Shown one piece after another: positions 57,986 to 63,618 of a DNA stretch of 64,000 nt. Each line of letters begins with the position of its first letter. The first letter of the stretch is position 1. The translations under genes were made by a program, and so were the position numbers. The notes below the pieces were generated by a model. That model made no database searches and was not told the origin of the DNA. It saw only the letters and a list, made by a program, of their open reading frames with translations. The stretch lies in the NCBI RefSeq assembly GCF_053078305.1, contig NZ_CP166879.1. One strand, written 5' to 3'.

Positions 57986-58783
57986 ATGCCCCTGGCAAAA
58001 ATACTTACAAAACAAGTTTCTTTATTAACTGTTTTTTCAGCGTTAGCTTATGTGATGGCATATTCTTTTCAGAAAGGTGTTGCATCGTATTATGGCTATC
58101 CAGCCCTTTTTATTAAAATAGATTTAAATACGCTATTGTATTCGGCTGTATGGCTTTTGTTTTTTAGTTTTTTATTTCTCGGTGCCTTATACGCGACATT
58201 GATGTTTGATTTGAAAGGGAAATATTATGTTCCATTTATTATATTTATAGTGGTTATGCTAATACCTAATTTTTACATAATAGGATTCCATTGGCCTTTT
58301 GGTTATTTCTCAGAAACCTCTGTGATGAGTGTTGGAGATATTTTATTATTTGCTCTGCTTTTGTTGAATTACCACAATGCGGTGTCCGCGTCAATCCATA
58401 GTAAGAGACACGAACATCATATGGATAGCATTAGAAAATTTGGGAGGCTTGCAGAGTATAAAGACGTATTTTATTATATCGATTTAAAAATCCTAAAATC
58501 AGCTTTTCCTTTAGGGGTGATGACATTATTGATATTGAGCTATACCTTCGGGAAGGTTACTGCATTTAAAAATAACGAATATTATATGGTAGATGGTAGT
58601 AATACTAAAGTGTTGCTCAATTCATTTGGTAGTGGTTTTGTTGTTGGTGATTGTGAGTCCAATAGCGCAAAATTTGAATTTGTTAATGATTTAAAAGGGA
58701 TGAAATTCACAGTCATGTCCTCTAAAAAGGAAATAGCTAAATTAAAAGAGTGTTTCGAAACACGTGTTAAAAATACGGATTAA
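57986..58783 (+). CDS. Hypothetical polytopic membrane protein (265 aa), AT-rich cargo gene
   Basis: GGAGG 7 bp upstream of the ATG; about five predicted hydrophobic helices plus a roughly 70-aa hydrophilic C-terminus; divergent from the helicase; no family recognised. Confidence 0.65.
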   Translation: MPLAKILTKQVSLLTVFSALAYVMAYSFQKGVASYYGYPALFIKIDLNTLLYSAVWLLFFSFLFLGALYATLMFDLKGKYYVPFIIFIVVMLIPNFYIIGFHWPFGYFSETSVMSVGDILLFALLLLNYHNAVSASIHSKRHEHHMDSIRKFGRLAEYKDVFYYIDLKILKSAFPLGVMTLLILSYTFGKVTAFKNNEYYMVDGSNTKVLLNSFGSGFVVGDCESNSAKFEFVNDLKGMKFTVMSSKKEIAKLKECFETRVKNTD

Positions 58784-59125: not shown

Positions 59126-59677
59126 TTAGCGACGGCTGGGATGAATTTTTTCACGGAGAACTAAGGTTAGTTGTTCTAGTGTCAATGGCTCGCCAAAATT
59201 CTCATGAAATAATGGATTGAATACATGCATCATGCGTTCGTATGTTGCCAGCGAAGGCGTGTGAGAATTAAGATCTCTTAATTTGAATTCTTCAAATCTA
59301 TCCAGTTTATTGATGACGAAATCAGCGGCTGCAAGATACTCAGTTTCGTTATTTCCATCGAATCCTTTGAATATTGGATTTTTTCCAAATAACTCAACAT
59401 TTTCTTTTAACTTCTTTTTTTCTTCTTCTGTAAGTTCACTGTAGCTATATTCAATAACTCTCCACATATCTAGGATGTCTAGAACTTTTTTTACAACACG
59501 TGGAGTTTCGGTATTTTTAAATGGAATACCACTAAATTTCCAAGGGAGTGCCCATGTTTGGTTTTCGAATATAGCATCACGGACAAATGTGTGATCGATT
59601 TCGCCTTCAATCTCGTTTTTATCGTACAGGTCACACAGCATCATTAGAATTAGTTTTTCGCCATCTGAAAGTTGCAT
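59126..59677 (-). CDS. YfbU-family (UPF0304) protein, 183 aa, AT-rich cargo gene
   Basis: MQLSDGEKLILMMLCDLYD..., FKGFDGNNETEYL, HTPSLATYERMMHVF align with remembered E. coli YfbU motifs (AQRLILSNQYKMM, FLGFDAATEARYL, QTPMWEKYQRML). Confidence 0.65.
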   Translation of the reverse strand: MQLSDGEKLILMMLCDLYDKNEIEGEIDHTFVRDAIFENQTWALPWKFSGIPFKNTETPRVVKKVLDILDMWRVIEYSYSELTEEEKKKLKENVELFGKNPIFKGFDGNNETEYLAAADFVINKLDRFEEFKLRDLNSHTPSLATYERMMHVFNPLFHENFGEPLTLEQLTLVLREKIHPSRR

Positions 59678-59682
59678 GTTTT

Positions 59683-60192
59683 TTATCCTTGAGTGTTAAA
59701 CGTTAAATCATCAACGAGTAGATCTATGTGAGGTTGAATAGCCAATATTTTTGCATGCAAAACTCTACCTGTTCTTAACTTTTCCGCAGGAGTTTTTGCA
59801 TCTGAAAGCTCAGAAATATTTTCCCTTATTTCAGCACAAAAATTTTCTGAGTCTATGCTCAATTTTACTTTATTGTTAGGTTTTATTGCTTGGGCTGCAA
59901 ATAAATCGATGAAATCCTCTATTTCAGAAATTATTGGTTCTAAACTTATGCCTCGAACATTTTCCTCATTCGAACCAGGACCAATTGCTCTTAGAGATTT
60001 TATGGCGGTTGATAACTTTCCATGAAGGTTGCCTGCGTCCCTTATACTACGTTGATAATTGACCGTAGCTAAAGCCTTTTGAGCTTCTGTGGCGGCATCC
60101 CGCGACTTTTTCCACCCCCATAGTGAACACATAGCACCAACTATGGTAACAAAAGTACCTATCCTTGATAGCCAGACATCTGTATTTTCCAT
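59683..60192 (-). CDS. Hypothetical membrane-anchored protein (169 aa), first gene of a two-gene cassette with the YfbU-family gene
   Basis: Single N-terminal hydrophobic helix (IGTFVTIVGAMCSLWGW) then a charged helical region; 5-nt gap to the downstream ORF; AT-rich. Confidence 0.6.
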   Translation of the reverse strand: MENTDVWLSRIGTFVTIVGAMCSLWGWKKSRDAATEAQKALATVNYQRSIRDAGNLHGKLSTAIKSLRAIGPGSNEENVRGISLEPIISEIEDFIDLFAAQAIKPNNKVKLSIDSENFCAEIRENISELSDAKTPAEKLRTGRVLHAKILAIQPHIDLLVDDLTFNTQG

Positions 60193-60277: not shown

Positions 60278-62341
60278 TCAGTCCTTACGGTAGTGGTACG
60301 CCTCAAAACCGCCAGCGTTCAGTGGGATATCGGGCGCCCATTCGGGGTTAGTGGAGAGAAGCGCGGAAAGCGCTTTATCGTTGAAATCTTCTGTGTCAGG
60401 TGCTTCGGTGATCACCTCGTCGTGTACCGTCAGCACAATGCTGTAACCGGCATCTTCGATAAGCGGCATGTTTCCGGCCAGAACGTCGCGGGCGGCCGCT
60501 TGGGTGACGTTCTCCACCAGCTTTCCGCCGTAGGTTTTGAGTCGTTGCCATTTACGTGAATAAGAGTTAACACCCATATAGGTGATATTCCCTTTTTCGA
60601 TAATCGGAGACGGGTAGCATACAGCGCGTCCAGATGGCAGCTGTATGCGCAGCCACGCGCCATCACGTCGGATTTTAAGATAGCCGCAATACAATGTTTT
60701 TTGCGGTGTGGCGATTGCAGTGCGGACGGTGCGCTCCAGTTCGTACCAGAAATCACAGGTCGCGGGATGCGCCCGGCGCCAGAGACGTTTAAGTGAGTCG
60801 CAGGCGATAAATACCCGTTCAGAAAGCCCGTAGGTTGACTTGCGTTTAACCGATTCGTCGTACCAGCTTTTCGCCTCGCGGATAACATCGCGGGGAATGT
60901 TTGGTAGTGCGGCGTTCGCCAGCTCGTCGAGATCGAGACCGTAAACCAGTGCAAAAGTGATGAAGGCCGACACACCACCACCATAACCCAGACCGAGTTC
61001 CATGACTTTACCGATCTGACGCATGTGTTTATCAACATCATCTGGTGCAATATCGAAAGCTTTTGCATACGCCAGTTTATATAAGTCCGGACCCGTTCCG
61101 GCGTCGTACTCTCTGAATGCATTCAGTTTCCATTCTTCTCCCGCCAGCCATGCCAGCATACGGCCTTCAATGTTCGACAAGTCACTTACCACCAGCTTTT
61201 TGCCTGTTGGCGCGATAATGCAGCCACGTAACGCTGAACTGGTTAGTTCCATGATATTGTCAAACAGCAGGTCTGCACATCCGGCTTTCAGTGCTTCGAT
61301 GCCTTCGTCTATTTGTTCCTGTTTTAGTGAAGGGCGGGGAAGGTTCTGGGGCTGGAATAGCCGTCCGGCCCAACGACCGGTACGTGACGCCCCGCAGAAC
61401 TGTAGCGTACCGCGTAAGCGCCCGTCGTGGCTTACGCCTTTCATCAGTGCCTTGTATTTACTGGTGCTGGTAGTACTGGCCTGCAGGCGGATAGCCAGCA
61501 GTTCTTTCACGGCAGATGGTAAATCGGGGTCGGCAATACGACGTTCCAGAGTACTGCGTTGCATGTCTGGTAGCTCCACACCGTAGGATTCAACAATGTG
61601 CTTAATCAACGCGTCTCGTTGTGTGGCTGCCTGCACTTCGCCATCAGTCATTTCCTGTGTACGCTTTGCCAGGCGCTTTTGTTCCTGGTCTACCGCGTCG
61701 ATCGCAGCGCGTGCGAGTTCCACGTCCATGCAGACGCCCCGGTCATTGATCTGCTGATCACGATGCCAGAGCGCCAGTTCTGTCCCCTGATAATTCCACT
61801 TCGGCAGACGTTTATAGACTTCGCGCATTGCCTCGATATCCAGTCCGGCGTAAGCAACAAAGCGCCGCCATTCTTCCGGGTGGGTTTTGCTGGTGGCCCG
61901 GCGCAGTTTGCTGTTTTTCGGGCGTGGCTTACAGAACAGCTGGATCAGCGCTTTACCTTCTTTGTCCTTCGCTTTGTCTTGCGGGACGCCTAGTACTTCG
62001 CAGAGTTCCCCCAGAGACCCCGGGAGACCGTGCGCCAGCGCCTGCACCATTGTGTCGCGCCAACGTTCGACTGGCGGTGCCAGGCGCGGCATTGCATAAC
62101 GCAGAACGGTGCGGTCGAAGTGAGAGTTATGGAAATAAAGCAGGGTTTCAGGGTCTGCGATTGCTTCGTATAAGCCGTGTGGAATACCACCACCGGCAGT
62201 GATATCCCACACGTTTACTGGCCCGTCGTTGATAGCCCATGCGAAAAGCATCACTTCAACGCCTTCGGCATACGCATGGGTACCGTTCGTAATAGGGATT
62301 TCGCAATAGGTTTCCAGGTCGCCCCATAGTATATTGGACAT
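60278..62341 (-). CDS. Phage-type family A DNA polymerase with 3-prime-5-prime exonuclease domain
   Basis: 687-aa ORF; Exo I DLETY; pol motifs DLSNIEGR (A), [16 protein letters not shown] (B), HDEVITE (C). Confidence 0.88.
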
Positions 62342-62387
62342 GTGTTTACCTTGGTTTTTATTCTATTAACTGATTAAAAGATTAATT

Positions 62388-63017
62388 ATGCATATGATCC
62401 AATACTTGATTGACCATACAGAGCATCTGGAGAAAATAGCTGGATATATTTTTTCATGTTTGATTGTTATGGGAGTCTGGATAAGAAAGATCATTTTTAA
62501 TTATAAGTATAAAGAGCCTAAATATGTCAAGAAGTTAATTTTATATTTAGTTAAGTATGAACGTTATCTGGATGAGGAGGATAAGAGTGCCATAGAAAAA
62601 AGAATAAATGATAAAATTATTCGTGATGCGCTGAAATTGCAATCCTCTTATAACCGAAGAGATGTTATTTACATTTGCAATAGATTAGAAAAAAGACAGT
62701 ATATAAATCAGTTGATTAAGCTTCAGAATTATATAGAGAAAGATAACGGAGTGTTTTTTATTAATGTTGATTTTTCAGGTTTTTTATTTATTATTAGTCG
62801 TCTGTTTTCCTTTCTGTGTTTTGTGCTGTTTACCCTTTTTTCTATTATCTGCATTATTTCCATAGGGCAAAATGAAGGCCTTTTAAATTATCTTGTGTAT
62901 ATGGTTATGATAATAGTTTTAGAGACTGTTGGTTTTTGGATGTATGATACTTTCCCGTCTAAGAAAAAGATCTGTGAACTAAATAAAGAATTGAGAAAGA
63001 TTAAGATTCCTGAGTGA
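62388..63017 (+). CDS. Hypothetical membrane protein (209 aa), very AT-rich cargo gene
   Basis: ORF divergent from the polymerase; predicted N-terminal helix and two C-terminal hydrophobic helices; Lys/Ile/Tyr-rich; no family recognised. Confidence 0.55.
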   Translation: MHMIQYLIDHTEHLEKIAGYIFSCLIVMGVWIRKIIFNYKYKEPKYVKKLILYLVKYERYLDEEDKSAIEKRINDKIIRDALKLQSSYNRRDVIYICNRLEKRQYINQLIKLQNYIEKDNGVFFINVDFSGFLFIISRLFSFLCFVLFTLFSIICIISIGQNEGLLNYLVYMVMIIVLETVGFWMYDTFPSKKKICELNKELRKIKIPE

Positions 63018-63069
63018 TTATACGCCTAATCAGTAGCCCGGTGTTTAACCGGGCGTCTATGAAGTAGGG

Positions 63070-63618
63070 TTAAATTAGTGCTTCAGCATCAGCACCTTCG
63101 CTGATATCGTCGAAATCGTCAGCGCTTGCCACTCCGCCGCCAGCGAATGCATCGCCGTCTCGCAGGAACTGGACTCCGCCGAGTGAGGCATTAATGCGTT
63201 TACCGAAATTATTGTCCTGTGCCCAGATATCGATAACGGCGTTTACATAGCACCCTGCATAGGGACGTCCGTCAGCCTGAATAAGTGGCGAACGATCGCG
63301 ATCAAGAACAGCTGGGCGCGCTTTGTTAGCAGCATTCAGGAAGAAATTACCGGGGAAGCCTTCATACTCTGCTTTTTCATCACCATCATGCAGGCACAGA
63401 TTGAGTTTTTTCTCCAGCTGGTTATAAATGGGCTCCCACTTCTCTCCCCATTTTTCCTTCGCTACCTGCTTCATAGCTTTACGGATTTCTTCCAGTTGTG
63501 GGTGTTTGGGAGACATTAAAAATACTGCGGAGAAACGCGGATCGCCTTCGCCGTTTACAGTTTTAGCTTCAAACAGAGACGGGAAGGCCAGACGAACATT
63601 GTTCAGCTTCAGTTTCAT
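63070..63618 (-). CDS. DUF2815-like phage replication-module protein
   Basis: 182-aa ORF MKLKLNNVRLAFPSLFEAK... with acidic C-terminal tail; sits between a DUF2800-like gene and the polymerase as in other phages. Confidence 0.6.
   Translation of the reverse strand: MKLKLNNVRLAFPSLFEAKTVNGEGDPRFSAVFLMSPKHPQLEEIRKAMKQVAKEKWGEKWEPIYNQLEKKLNLCLHDGDEKAEYEGFPGNFFLNAANKARPAVLDRDRSPLIQADGRPYAGCYVNAVIDIWAQDNNFGKRINASLGGVQFLRDGDAFAGGGVASADDFDDISEGADAEALI

What the first reader, a model, noticed from the sequence alone, without database searches (positions are those of the whole stretch)
62388..63017. Very AT-rich membrane-protein ORF between the DNA polymerase and the DUF2815-like gene
A 209-aa ORF on the opposite strand to the replication operon, with hydrophobic segments at the N-terminus and near the C-terminus and a Lys/Ile/Tyr-rich composition that contrasts with the flanking genes. 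A single-gene insertion in a variable slot of a phage operon is consistent with a single-protein abortive-infection or exclusion factor. Its extreme composition could alternatively mean it is a non-coding AT-rich spacer with a chance ORF.
Basis: partly seen in the sequence, partly recalled or inferred. Interest (0 to 1): 0.55.

Follow-up and report, generated by a model that had tools for sequence, protein, structure and literature searches.

The report
Mobile prophage membrane-protein gene, function unknown
The AT-rich ORF is a real gene for a three-pass inner-membrane protein from a small, unnamed family that sits alone in the swappable cargo slots of several unrelated prophages and genomic islands, which makes it a reasonable but untested candidate for a phage-exclusion or abortive-infection factor.

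Summary
Window 62388..63017 (+) is a 209-aa ORF at 29% G+C, lying between a DNA polymerase and a DUF2815 gene that are both on the minus strand.

It is not a chance ORF:
- None of 10,000 shuffles gave an open frame this long.
- Full-length homologues at 22-43% identity keep the same length and layout: TM1, a basic cytoplasmic domain of about 95 aa, a two-helix TM hairpin, and a conserved C-terminal helix.

The host is an E. coli prophage next to yfhL. The pol|DUF2815 slot is variable across complete E. coli genomes:
- 66 carry this gene.
- 13 carry a 199-aa remote homologue of the same family (hhalign 98%, about 17% identity).
- 58 carry Nmad5 cassettes.

Relatives sit alone in a P2-like prophage (the orf30 slot), in lambdoid prophages (one beside a dGTPase defence gene), in an ICE-like element, in an integrative island and in a Xenorhabdus chromosomal islet.

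Pfam, NCBIfam and PADLOC give no match; PHROGs places it only in an unannotated family. It shows no homology to SieA, SieB or RexB.

Best reading: an autonomous "moron" whose product acts at the membrane, probably in phage exclusion or abortive infection. That function is inferred, not shown.

The parts
62342..63069 (.). The 728-bp AT-rich cassette (30% G+C) that is exchanged as a unit. It fills exactly the space between the pol start codon and the DUF2815 stop codon.
   Evidence: Junction comparison with L013, L014, L015 and L032: similarity breaks at the pol ATG and at the DUF2815 stop codon. Composition.
62388..63017 (+). Coding sequence of the 209-aa three-TM membrane protein, stop codon included.
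   Evidence: Homologues conserve the N-terminus from residue 1 (Y6, H10, E12), which supports the ATG at 62388 over Met28, the residue at which the PHROG profile match begins.
62335..62364 (+). The only sigma-70-like promoter candidate upstream of the ORF (TGGACA-18-TATTCT, 9 of 12 matches). Its -35 element overlaps the pol start codon.
   Evidence: This is a weak consensus match and the number of sites is not above shuffle expectation. There is no clear Shine-Dalgarno sequence before 62388.
62436..62498 (+). TM1 (residues about 17-37). The short acidic N-terminus before it is predicted to be periplasmic.
   Evidence: Hydropathy; AF2 helix 11-36; charge distribution across the family.
62499..62774 (+). 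Central basic cytoplasmic domain (residues about 38-129): four helices plus a beta-hairpin. It carries the family motif YL-x-KY-x2-YL-x3-DK.
   Evidence: AF2 model with alignment, pLDDT 75.7. K+R 22 against D+E 14. Conserved columns. No PDB or Pfam match.
62775..62951 (+). TM2-TM3 helical hairpin (residues about 130-160 and 165-188) with a 4-residue periplasmic turn. R138 and E179 are invariant in the close subfamily (alignment A4).
62955..62999 (+). Juxtamembrane C-terminal helix, the most conserved element of the family. N199 and L202 are invariant; I195, E201 and K204 are nearly so.
63036..63054 (.). GC-rich hairpin (GCCCGGU-N5-ACCGGGC) in the 52-bp gap between the two convergent stop codons. 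It has no U-tract.
   Evidence: strand folding gives -20.7 kcal/mol with z -3.3 on the + strand and z -4.0 on the - strand. The terminator scan found none. The 199-aa-allele cassettes (L013, L032) carry their own, different hairpins at the same place, and inverted repeats are also visible there in the L014 and L015 cassettes.
60278..62341 (-). Flank: family A DNA polymerase. It is head-to-head with the ORF, with 46 bp between the two start codons.
63070..63618 (-). Flank: DUF2815 / Enc34-type ssDNA-binding protein, tail-to-tail with the ORF.

Best explanation
Shown: the ORF is a real, horizontally mobile accessory gene (a 'moron') of an E. coli prophage integrated next to yfhL. It encodes an inner-membrane protein with predicted N-out/C-in topology. 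The layout is TM1, then a basic helical cytoplasmic domain of about 95 aa, then a TM2-TM3 hairpin, then a conserved basic juxtamembrane helix. It belongs to a small, unnamed family restricted to Enterobacterales. Members always occur as solitary genes in the exchangeable slots of unrelated mobile elements. Inferred: it lies antisense inside the leftward early (replication) operon, so it needs its own promoter. It would therefore be free to be expressed when that operon is repressed in the lysogen, and would be silenced by antisense read-through during lytic growth. That is the same arrangement as sieB in P22. The most likely function is protecting the lysogen against other phages at the membrane. 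This could work by blocking genome entry, or by the cytoplasmic domain sensing infection and opening the TM hairpin to collapse the membrane potential (abortive infection). The two deeply diverged alleles in the same slot would then be specificity variants.
For: Real gene: no shuffle of 10,000 reaches its length. The frame has no internal stop against 8-26 in the other frames. All 11 full-length E. coli and IMG/VR copies compared are intact, with pN/pS about 0.44. Family: full-length homologues at 22-43% identity share length and architecture. The AF2 model reaches pLDDT 75.7 once the alignment is used. Charge distribution fits N-out/C-in in all 15 members. Variable slot: among 158 E. coli genomes with this pol/DUF2815 module, 66 carry the 209-aa gene, 13 carry a 199-aa gene and 58 carry Nmad5 cassettes, and an antA/antB antirepressor cassette was also seen. 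Exchange boundaries fall exactly at the flanking start and stop codons. The 199-aa occupant is a remote homologue of the same family: hhalign 98.05%, E 1.4e-13, 190 columns end to end, 17% identity. Four unrelated membrane proteins gave at most 1.3% as controls. Mobility and autonomy: relatives sit between gpS and gpV of a Rahnella P2-like prophage, which is the orf30 locus described as a horizontal-acquisition site (PMC3091744, PMC6823313). Others sit upstream of Q in a lambdoid prophage, between PAPS-reductase and RecT on the opposite strand, beside DUF1367 and an integrase, in a TraG-bearing ICE-like contig, at the cargo end of a CbtA/CbeA-type island, and in a syntenic Xenorhabdus islet between SLT and thrS. 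No partner gene is shared. Genes are 28-35% G+C (one is 40%) against flanks of 41-57% in every context. Defence neighbourhood: the adjacent VRR-NUC|pol slot of sister prophages holds a TIR protein matching the PADLOC candidate PDC-S35 at E 2e-108. The lambdoid relative lies 2 kb from a dGTPase defence gene (E 6e-144) and a cytosine methylase with an HNH gene. Cargo in the three slots of this prophage assorts independently. P22 sieB has the same opposite-strand, own-promoter placement in an early-left operon.
Against: No experiment or transcript data support expression or any phenotype. The only promoter candidate is weak, and promoter-like sites are not more frequent than in shuffles. The 209-aa allele has no Shine-Dalgarno sequence, although the 199-aa allele has one. 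About 10% of its codons are rare in E. coli. There is no match to any PADLOC defence model, Pfam family or NCBIfam family, and the only PHROG match is to a family without annotation. There is no homology to SieA, SieB or RexB. pN/pS of about 0.44 from only 17 variable sites shows only mild constraint. A frameshifted copy exists (P0002). Stable vertical inheritance in Xenorhabdus would also fit a housekeeping-type membrane role. Most family contexts have no recognisable defence gene nearby.
Confidence: 0.45

Rival explanations
1. It is a lysogenic-conversion membrane protein whose benefit has nothing to do with phages. Possible roles include immunity to a membrane-targeting bacteriocin or contact-dependent toxin, conjugative entry exclusion, or envelope or ion homeostasis.
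For: It is solitary, mobile and AT-rich like many conversion genes. Copies are syntenic and vertically kept in a Xenorhabdus chromosomal islet. One relative is in an ICE-like contig near TraG_N and one is near a Tlde1-domain gene. One member gave a very weak TraS hit at E 0.084. No defence-database match exists.
Against: No cognate toxin or partner gene recurs next to family members. The TraS hit is not significant and comes from 1 of 14 members. tblastn with one family member (P0004) found no copy in 72,556 plasmid records. Most occurrences are inside prophages, some next to defence genes.
Confidence: 0.22
2. It serves the carrier element's own life cycle. Possible roles include membrane anchoring of replication, control of lysis timing in a holin-like way, or host takeover.
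For: It sits in the replication module of inducible phages (vB_EcoM-689R2 and relatives). Its three-TM, N-out/C-in topology with a basic C-tail resembles class I holins (holin topology from general knowledge).
Against: It is dispensable. Sister prophages with about 98% identical flanks carry unrelated cassettes in its place. It is antisense to the early operon, so it cannot be expressed as part of it. The prophage has its own lambda-family holin, endolysin and lysis cassette. Relatives occur in non-phage islands and chromosomal islets with no replication or lysis genes.
Confidence: 0.1
3. It is a selfish or nearly neutral passenger: a gene that persists by hitch-hiking or by mild addiction-type toxicity, with no function selected for the host or the phage.
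For: Constraint within E. coli is only mild (pN/pS about 0.44). A frameshifted and several partial copies exist. Expression signals are weak. The family is rare, present in 3 of 50,697 phage records.
Against: Length, topology and specific motifs are conserved down to 17-25% identity across genera. The gene has been captured independently into at least seven kinds of locus. It is retained across Xenorhabdus species.
Confidence: 0.12
4. It is a non-coding AT-rich spacer that happens to contain an open frame.
For: Extreme A+T content and no Shine-Dalgarno sequence.
Against: No shuffle of 10,000 reaches 209 codons; the maximum was 157. The other five frames carry 8-26 stops each. Homologous proteins exist at 22-43% identity with intact frames in other genera.
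Confidence: 0.01

Closest known systems
P22 (and lambda) SieB superinfection-exclusion / abortive-infection gene
   Same: Both are single genes placed on the opposite strand inside the early-left operon of a temperate phage. The P22 record annotates sieB with its own promoter. Both products are about 190-210 aa.
   Different: There is no sequence relationship: hhalign probability 0.3%.
P22 SieA inner-membrane exclusion protein
   Same: Both are solitary genes with their own transcription unit, opposite in strand to the upstream late gene 16, and both encode small proteins. That SieA is an inner-membrane protein is from general knowledge.
   Different: No homology: hhalign probability 0.25%. 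SieA is 163 aa.
[quoted passage not shown]
   Same: Both have a two-helix TM hairpin flanked by cytoplasmic helices, in proteins of about 200 aa found in conflict loci. Two remote structural neighbours in AFDB carry this name. SLATT proteins are predicted pore-forming suicide effectors (bioRxiv 10.64898/2026.04.29.721553).
   Different: No Pfam, NCBIfam or PADLOC model matches any of the members scanned. SLATT proteins work with a partner enzyme such as a reverse transcriptase or nucleotide cyclase, whereas this family is always solitary.
Morons of temperate phages, including the P2 orf30 locus between S and V
   Same: It is an extra gene between genes that are adjacent or differently filled in sister phages, with deviating base composition and a hairpin after the gene. 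A 38%-identical relative sits exactly in the P2-type S|V slot, described as a horizontal-acquisition locus (PMC3091744, PMC6823313).
   Different: 'Moron' describes an organisation, not a function. Promoter activity and expression in lysogens are not shown here.
Class I holins (lambda S105 type)
   Same: Both have three TM helices, N-out/C-in topology and a basic C-terminal tail (holin features from general knowledge).
   Different: This protein is twice the size, with a 95-aa cytoplasmic domain between TM1 and TM2. It is not in the lysis cassette, and the prophage has its own lambda-family holin.
Lambda RexB
   Same: Both are prophage-encoded polytopic membrane proteins. RexB is the classic membrane component of an abortive-infection system (general knowledge).
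   Different: No homology: hhalign probability 0.27%. RexB needs RexA, whereas this gene has no partner.

Membership tests
SLATT domain (Pfam SLATT_1 to SLATT_5) | A significant match to a SLATT profile | tested here: not met
   Pfam scans found no SLATT hit at E<=10 for the query and none at E<=0.1 for any of 14 members. NCBIfam and PADLOC found nothing either. A profile-profile test against SLATT alignments was not possible because no SLATT sequence could be retrieved (one search failed).
SLATT domain (Pfam SLATT_1 to SLATT_5) | A two-TM helical hairpin core with flanking cytoplasmic helices | tested here: met
   TM2 132-160 and TM3 165-188, with a helical domain before and helix 192-202 after. 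Two AFDB structural neighbours are labelled SLATT.
SLATT domain (Pfam SLATT_1 to SLATT_5) | Genomic association with a nucleotide-generating or nucleotide-sensing partner (SMODS, SLOG or reverse transcriptase) | tested here: not met
   No such neighbour appears in 12 examined contexts.
DUF4239 / DUF2721 (names attached to some AFDB neighbours) | A match to the Pfam model | tested here: not met
   The names appear only on AFDB hits. Pfam scans of the query and 14 members give no DUF4239 or DUF2721 hit.
Known superinfection-exclusion / Abi membrane proteins (SieA, SieB, RexB; PADLOC and PHROG models) | Sequence or profile homology | tested here: not met
   hhalign probability is at most 0.3% against P22 SieA, P22 SieB and lambda RexB. 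PADLOC gave no hit for the query. The only significant PHROG match is phrog_10579, of unknown function.
PADLOC candidate PDC-S47 | A match to the PDC-S47 profile | tested here: inconclusive
   Only one distant member (P0010) matches, at E 4e-4 over residues 18-94 against profile positions 30-109 of 265. The query and eight other members give nothing.
Phage moron (extra autonomous gene between conserved genes) | Present in some and absent or replaced in otherwise near-identical sister phages | tested here: met
   Counts are 66 genomes with this gene, 13 with the 199-aa allele and 58 with Nmad5 cassettes, and an antA/antB cassette was also seen. Flanks are about 98% identical. Boundaries fall at the flanking start and stop codons.
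Phage moron (extra autonomous gene between conserved genes) | Base composition different from the flanking genes | tested here: met
   29% against 49-54% G+C here, and the same contrast in all 12 loci.
Phage moron (extra autonomous gene between conserved genes) | Its own promoter and terminator | tested here: inconclusive
   The opposite-strand orientation requires a separate promoter. Only a weak candidate was found at 62335-62364, and no canonical terminator. A stable hairpin without a U-tract follows the gene.
Phage moron (extra autonomous gene between conserved genes) | Expressed from the repressed prophage | not testable with these tools
   No transcriptome data are accessible.
Class I holin | Three TM helices, N-out/C-in, basic C-tail | tested here: met
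   This is a prediction only.
Class I holin | About 100 aa and encoded in the lysis cassette next to the endolysin | tested here: not met
   The protein is 209 aa and lies in the replication module. A separate lambda-family holin and endolysin lie about 9 kb away.
F-type TraS entry exclusion | A match to Pfam TraS (PF10624) | tested here: not met
   One of 14 members matches at E 0.084, and the query does not match.

The most novel reading that the evidence does not exclude
The family is a previously unrecognised stand-alone, sensor-plus-pore abortive-infection or exclusion protein. In this reading a SLATT-like two-TM hairpin is gated by its own basic cytoplasmic domain rather than by a partner enzyme. 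The two alleles in one prophage slot, only 17% identical, would then be specificity variants produced by an arms race. This would add a new single-gene defence family that travels between the cargo slots of P2-like, lambdoid and polA-type prophages, ICEs and islands.
Probability: 0.2. Interest if true: 0.65.

Novelty: new variant of a known kind. Interest (0 to 1): 0.4.

Why it matters
If the gene does exclude phages, it would define a new single-gene, membrane-acting defence family that current defence catalogues miss. It would also mark the three opposite-strand slots of this prophage's replication operon as a defence and counter-defence hotspot. The neighbouring slots already carry TIR (PDC-S35) cargo and Nmad5 cargo. 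The natural pair of alleles at about 17% identity, sitting between about 98% identical flanks, offers a ready-made experiment on specificity. If it has no anti-phage role, it is still a clean example of a moron family captured independently by many element types. It is currently annotated only as 'hypothetical protein'.

Tried and rejected
- **Chance ORF:** rejected.
- **Database annotation:** Pfam, NCBIfam and PADLOC give nothing significant, and PHROGs gives only phrog_10579, which has no annotation.
- **Weak Rex wHTH hit:** the NCBIfam Rex-repressor hit (E 0.005, residues 54-110) was followed up. I built a central-domain alignment (A5) and searched PDB sequences with it. Only non-significant S18 matches appeared, so a winged-helix assignment is not claimed.
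- **SLATT and DUF4239 labels:** these labels on AFDB neighbours could not be reproduced with Pfam.
- **Retrieving a validated SLATT gene:** searching genome contigs with a published DRT10 primer found only a chance match in a Saprospiraceae MAG.
- **Homology to known exclusion proteins:** P22 SieA, P22 SieB and lambda RexB were all rejected.
- **Relationship to the 265-aa membrane ORF in the same prophage:** rejected at 1.3% probability.
- **Rfam:** no RNA family in 62000-63400.
- **Plasmids:** tblastn with P0004 found no copy.
- **Literature:** searches for the protein accessions, the PHROG id, the carrier phages and PDC-S47 found nothing.
- **The search for related loci:** the full alignment failed for lack of a conserved stretch. 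A four-sequence alignment found only close relatives.

Full report
**1. The observation**

It lies between two minus-strand genes. One is a 687-aa family A DNA polymerase (60278..62341) and the other is a 182-aa DUF2815 / Enc34-type ssDNA-binding protein (63070..63618). Their identities come from the RefSeq annotation of a 100%-identical locus and from Pfam hits on the Klebsiella equivalent.

The ORF is 29.2% G+C, against 54.2% for pol and 49.2% for DUF2815. Ile, Leu, Lys and Tyr make up 43% of its residues. Hydropathy gives three hydrophobic segments at about 17-37, 130-160 and 165-188.

The frame is not a chance opening:
- It has no internal stop, while the other five frames have 8-26 each.
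- In 10,000 mononucleotide or first-order Markov shuffles of the 728-bp cassette, the longest stop-free run was 157 codons, against 215 observed.

**2. Where the window comes from**

The DNA is E. coli. The region is a prophage integrated beside yfhL and shoB. Its leftward operon runs repressor, DUF2800, DUF2815, pol, VRR-NUC nuclease, helicase. Its rightward arm carries a VapE primase, an antiterminator Q, lysis genes and structural genes.

The 728-bp cassette occurs in 66 of 5,426 complete E. coli genomes at 95-100% identity, always on the chromosome. It also occurs in three sequenced E. coli phages, vB_EcoM-689R2, -611R5 and -606R2.

**3. It is a conserved protein family**

A full HMMER scan of 1.84 billion representative proteins found ten relatives. 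Six are full-length at 25-43% identity and 209-218 aa, and a seventh is 261 aa at 30%. Profile searches added a Xenorhabdus clade and a 199-aa clade.

Alignments conserve the length, the three hydrophobic segments and two motifs:
- A central motif, YL-x-KY-x2-YL-x3-DK.
- A C-terminal motif, P-x4-I-x3-N-x-EL-x-K. N199 and L202 are invariant.

N-terminal residues (Y6, H10, E12) are conserved as protein. This supports the ATG at 62388 rather than Met28, the residue at which the match to phrog_10579 begins.

AlphaFold2 rose from pLDDT 55 with a single sequence to 75.7 with the alignment. The model has helix 11-36, four helices and a beta-hairpin spanning 45-125, helices 132-160 and 165-188, and helix 192-202.

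In all 15 aligned members the short N-terminus is acidic, while the central loop and the C-tail are net basic. This predicts an N-out/C-in topology with the 95-aa domain in the cytoplasm.

Among six distinct E. coli alleles there are 6 synonymous and 11 non-synonymous differences, giving pN/pS of about 0.44. All 11 full-length copies compared are intact. One frameshifted copy exists (P0002).

**4. The slot is variable, and its second occupant is a remote homologue**

In total, 158 E. coli genomes carry this pol/DUF2815 module with flanks about 96-100% identical. The space between the two genes holds one of several cassettes:

| Cassette | Genomes |
|---|---|
| The 209-aa gene | 66 |
| A 199-aa + strand gene | 13 |
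| Nmad5 (minus strand) plus an 89-aa two-TM + strand ORF | 32 |
| A diverged Nmad5 plus a 230-aa soluble + strand ORF | 26 |
| An antA/antB antirepressor | seen in one sampled record |

Similarity breaks exactly at the pol start codon and the DUF2815 stop codon.

The 199-aa protein looks unrelated by BLASTP but has the same layout. Profile-profile comparison gives 98.05% probability and E 1.4e-13 over 190 columns end to end, at 17% identity. Four other membrane proteins served as controls and gave at most 1.3%: the 265-aa ORF of this same prophage, P22 SieA, P22 SieB and lambda RexB.

So one slot, between nearly identical flanks, holds two very old alleles of one family. The 199-aa allele sits in the same slot of a Klebsiella aerogenes prophage.

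**5. The family is a solitary, mobile cargo gene**

Relatives were found in the following places:
- Between gpS and gpV of a P2-like Rahnella prophage. This is the orf30 locus, one of three regions of P2-like phages described as holding horizontally acquired genes (PMC3091744, PMC6823313).
- Just upstream of antiterminator Q in a lambdoid prophage.
- On the opposite strand between a PAPS-reductase gene and recT on a phage contig.
- On the opposite strand beside DUF1367 and an integrase.
- In a TraG_N-bearing ICE-like contig next to HTH genes.
- At the cargo end of an island carrying antirestriction, RadC and CbtA/CbeA genes in Enterobacter.
- At the edge of a Xenorhabdus prophage remnant.
- In a Xenorhabdus chromosomal islet between an SLT gene and thrS, syntenic in two species.

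No neighbouring gene is shared among these contexts. In at least six of them the gene is opposite in strand to its neighbours, so it must have its own promoter.

The genes are 28-35% G+C (one is 40%) against flanks of 41-57% everywhere. tblastn searches with family members found no copy in 72,556 plasmid records (query P0004) and copies in only three of 50,697 phage records.

**6. Expression signals**

The only sigma-70-like candidate is TGGACA-18-TATTCT at 62335-62364, overlapping the pol start codon. Promoter-like sites in the region are not more frequent than in shuffles.

The 209-aa allele has no Shine-Dalgarno sequence. The 199-aa allele has GAAGGG or AGGAGG. Rare codons make up 9.6% of the ORF, against about 5% in the flanking genes.

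A stable GC-rich hairpin at 63036-63054 (z -3.3 and -4.0) sits between the convergent stop codons but has no U-tract. The 199-aa-allele cassettes carry their own, different hairpins at the same place. No Rfam family matches the region.

**7. Comparison with known families**

- Pfam-A, NCBIfam and PADLOC give nothing significant for the query or for the members scanned. PHROGs gives only phrog_10579, of unknown function.
- One distant member weakly matches the PADLOC candidate PDC-S47, at E 4e-4 over part of its length.
- Foldseek against AFDB50 recovers the family and a wider set of about 200-aa Enterobacterales proteins with the same layout. Two are named SLATT, three DUF4239 and two DUF2721. 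Current Pfam models do not reproduce those names on any member scanned.
- PDB sequence searches with the full-length profile and with the central-domain profile gave no significant hit.
- No paper mentions the protein.

**8. Defence neighbourhood**

The prophage has three slots in its leftward operon, and their cargo assorts independently. The 265-aa membrane ORF (helicase|VRR-NUC slot) is in 16 genomes. The YfbU-like plus 169-aa cassette (VRR-NUC|pol slot) is in only 4 genomes, one of which has Nmad5 rather than the 209-aa gene at the third slot.

In sister prophages the VRR-NUC|pol slot holds a TIR-domain protein matching PADLOC candidate PDC-S35 at E 2e-108. Other cargo there has weaker TIR-effector or DrmA-like matches.

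The lambdoid relative lies 2 kb from a dGTPase defence gene (E 6e-144) and a cytosine methylase with an HNH gene.

Nmad5, the alternative occupant of the same slot, is a predicted DNA-modification gene. Mutations in it let Dhillonvirus phages escape the Tmn defence system (PMC11846954).

**9. Interpretation**

*Shown:* this is a real gene from a small unnamed family. The protein is predicted to be a three-TM inner-membrane protein with a basic cytoplasmic domain. The gene is solitary, mobile and AT-rich, and it sits in a variable slot.

*Inferred:* the gene is antisense within the early-left operon, so it must be transcribed on its own. It would escape interference when that operon is repressed in the lysogen. 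This is the arrangement annotated for sieB in P22.

I consider a membrane-acting anti-phage role the most likely function, either by blocking entry or by triggered depolarisation. The grounds are the moron behaviour, the defence-type neighbours and the deep allelic divergence in one slot. My confidence is only about 0.45, because no expression or phenotype data exist and no known defence family matches.

The rivals are a conversion function unrelated to phages, a role in the element's own cycle, and a near-neutral passenger. The chance-ORF reading is excluded.

**10. Verdict**

Its functional guess is reasonable but unproven.

In kind, an AT-rich membrane-protein moron is ordinary. The family itself is unannotated, and the two-allele slot is a useful handle for experiments. 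Interest is moderate.

Noticed in passing
window 57986..58783 (+): A second AT-rich (32.5% G+C) opposite-strand cargo ORF of 265 aa, with several N-terminal hydrophobic segments and a soluble C-terminal part. It sits in the helicase|VRR-NUC slot and is present in 16 of 5,426 E. coli genomes. It has no Pfam-type, PADLOC or significant PHROG match, and it is unrelated to the 209-aa family (hhalign 1.3%).
   Followed up: partly
window 59126..59677 (-) and 59683..60192 (-): A two-gene AT-rich cassette in the VRR-NUC|pol slot. It holds a YfbU-like 183-aa protein (phrog_6084; NCBIfam YfbU at E 3e-15, below the cut-off) and a 169-aa protein with an N-terminal hydrophobic helix. The cassette occurs in only 4 complete E. 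coli genomes, including O55:H7 CB9615. It may be a two-gene system.
   Followed up: partly
L014:753-1514 (-), L015:782-1525 (-), L002:3105-3866 (-): In sister prophages the VRR-NUC|pol slot carries a TIR-domain protein of about 250 aa. The L014 copy was scanned and matches PADLOC candidate defence PDC-S35 over its full length (E 2e-108). In L001 the same slot holds a 342-aa ATP-binding protein with a weak DrmA-like match (E 5e-8).
   Followed up: partly
L014:3699-4674, L033:904-2228: The pol|DUF2815 slot alternatively carries an Nmad5 nucleotide-modification gene on the operon strand, in 58 genomes and two diverged versions. Each version is paired with a different + strand ORF next to pol: an 89-aa two-TM protein or a 230-aa soluble protein with a Gly/Ser linker. 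Neither matches PADLOC.
   Followed up: partly
window 63036..63054; L013:4255-4283; L032:6588-6614: The cassettes folded here each end in their own stable hairpin just before the DUF2815 stop codon, and inverted repeats are visible at the same place in L014 and L015. None has a U-tract, so these are not canonical terminators. Their role is unknown; transcript 3'-end protection, pausing or a recombination boundary are possibilities.
   Followed up: partly
H48 (E. coli GF4, NZ_CP172217.1) and H98 (E. coli ECZP248, NZ_CP034784.1): In strain GF4 an HNH endonuclease gene is inserted between DUF2815 and DUF2800. In strain ECZP248 an IS1 element sits in the Nmad5 cassette. These are further signs of ongoing rearrangement in this operon.
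   Followed up: no
P0002 (E. coli EPEC C342-62); H15 (O55:H7 DEC5B): A frameshifted 158-aa version of the gene exists, diverging after about residue 122. One genome with 99.5% identical DNA has no annotated CDS under the match. Both suggest occasional pseudogenisation.
   Followed up: no
L008:479-5743: The lambdoid prophage carrying the 27%-identical relative has a cluster upstream of Q: a cytosine methylase, an HNH protein, a dGTPase defence gene (PADLOC E 6e-144) and an unannotated 424-aa protein.
   Followed up: partly
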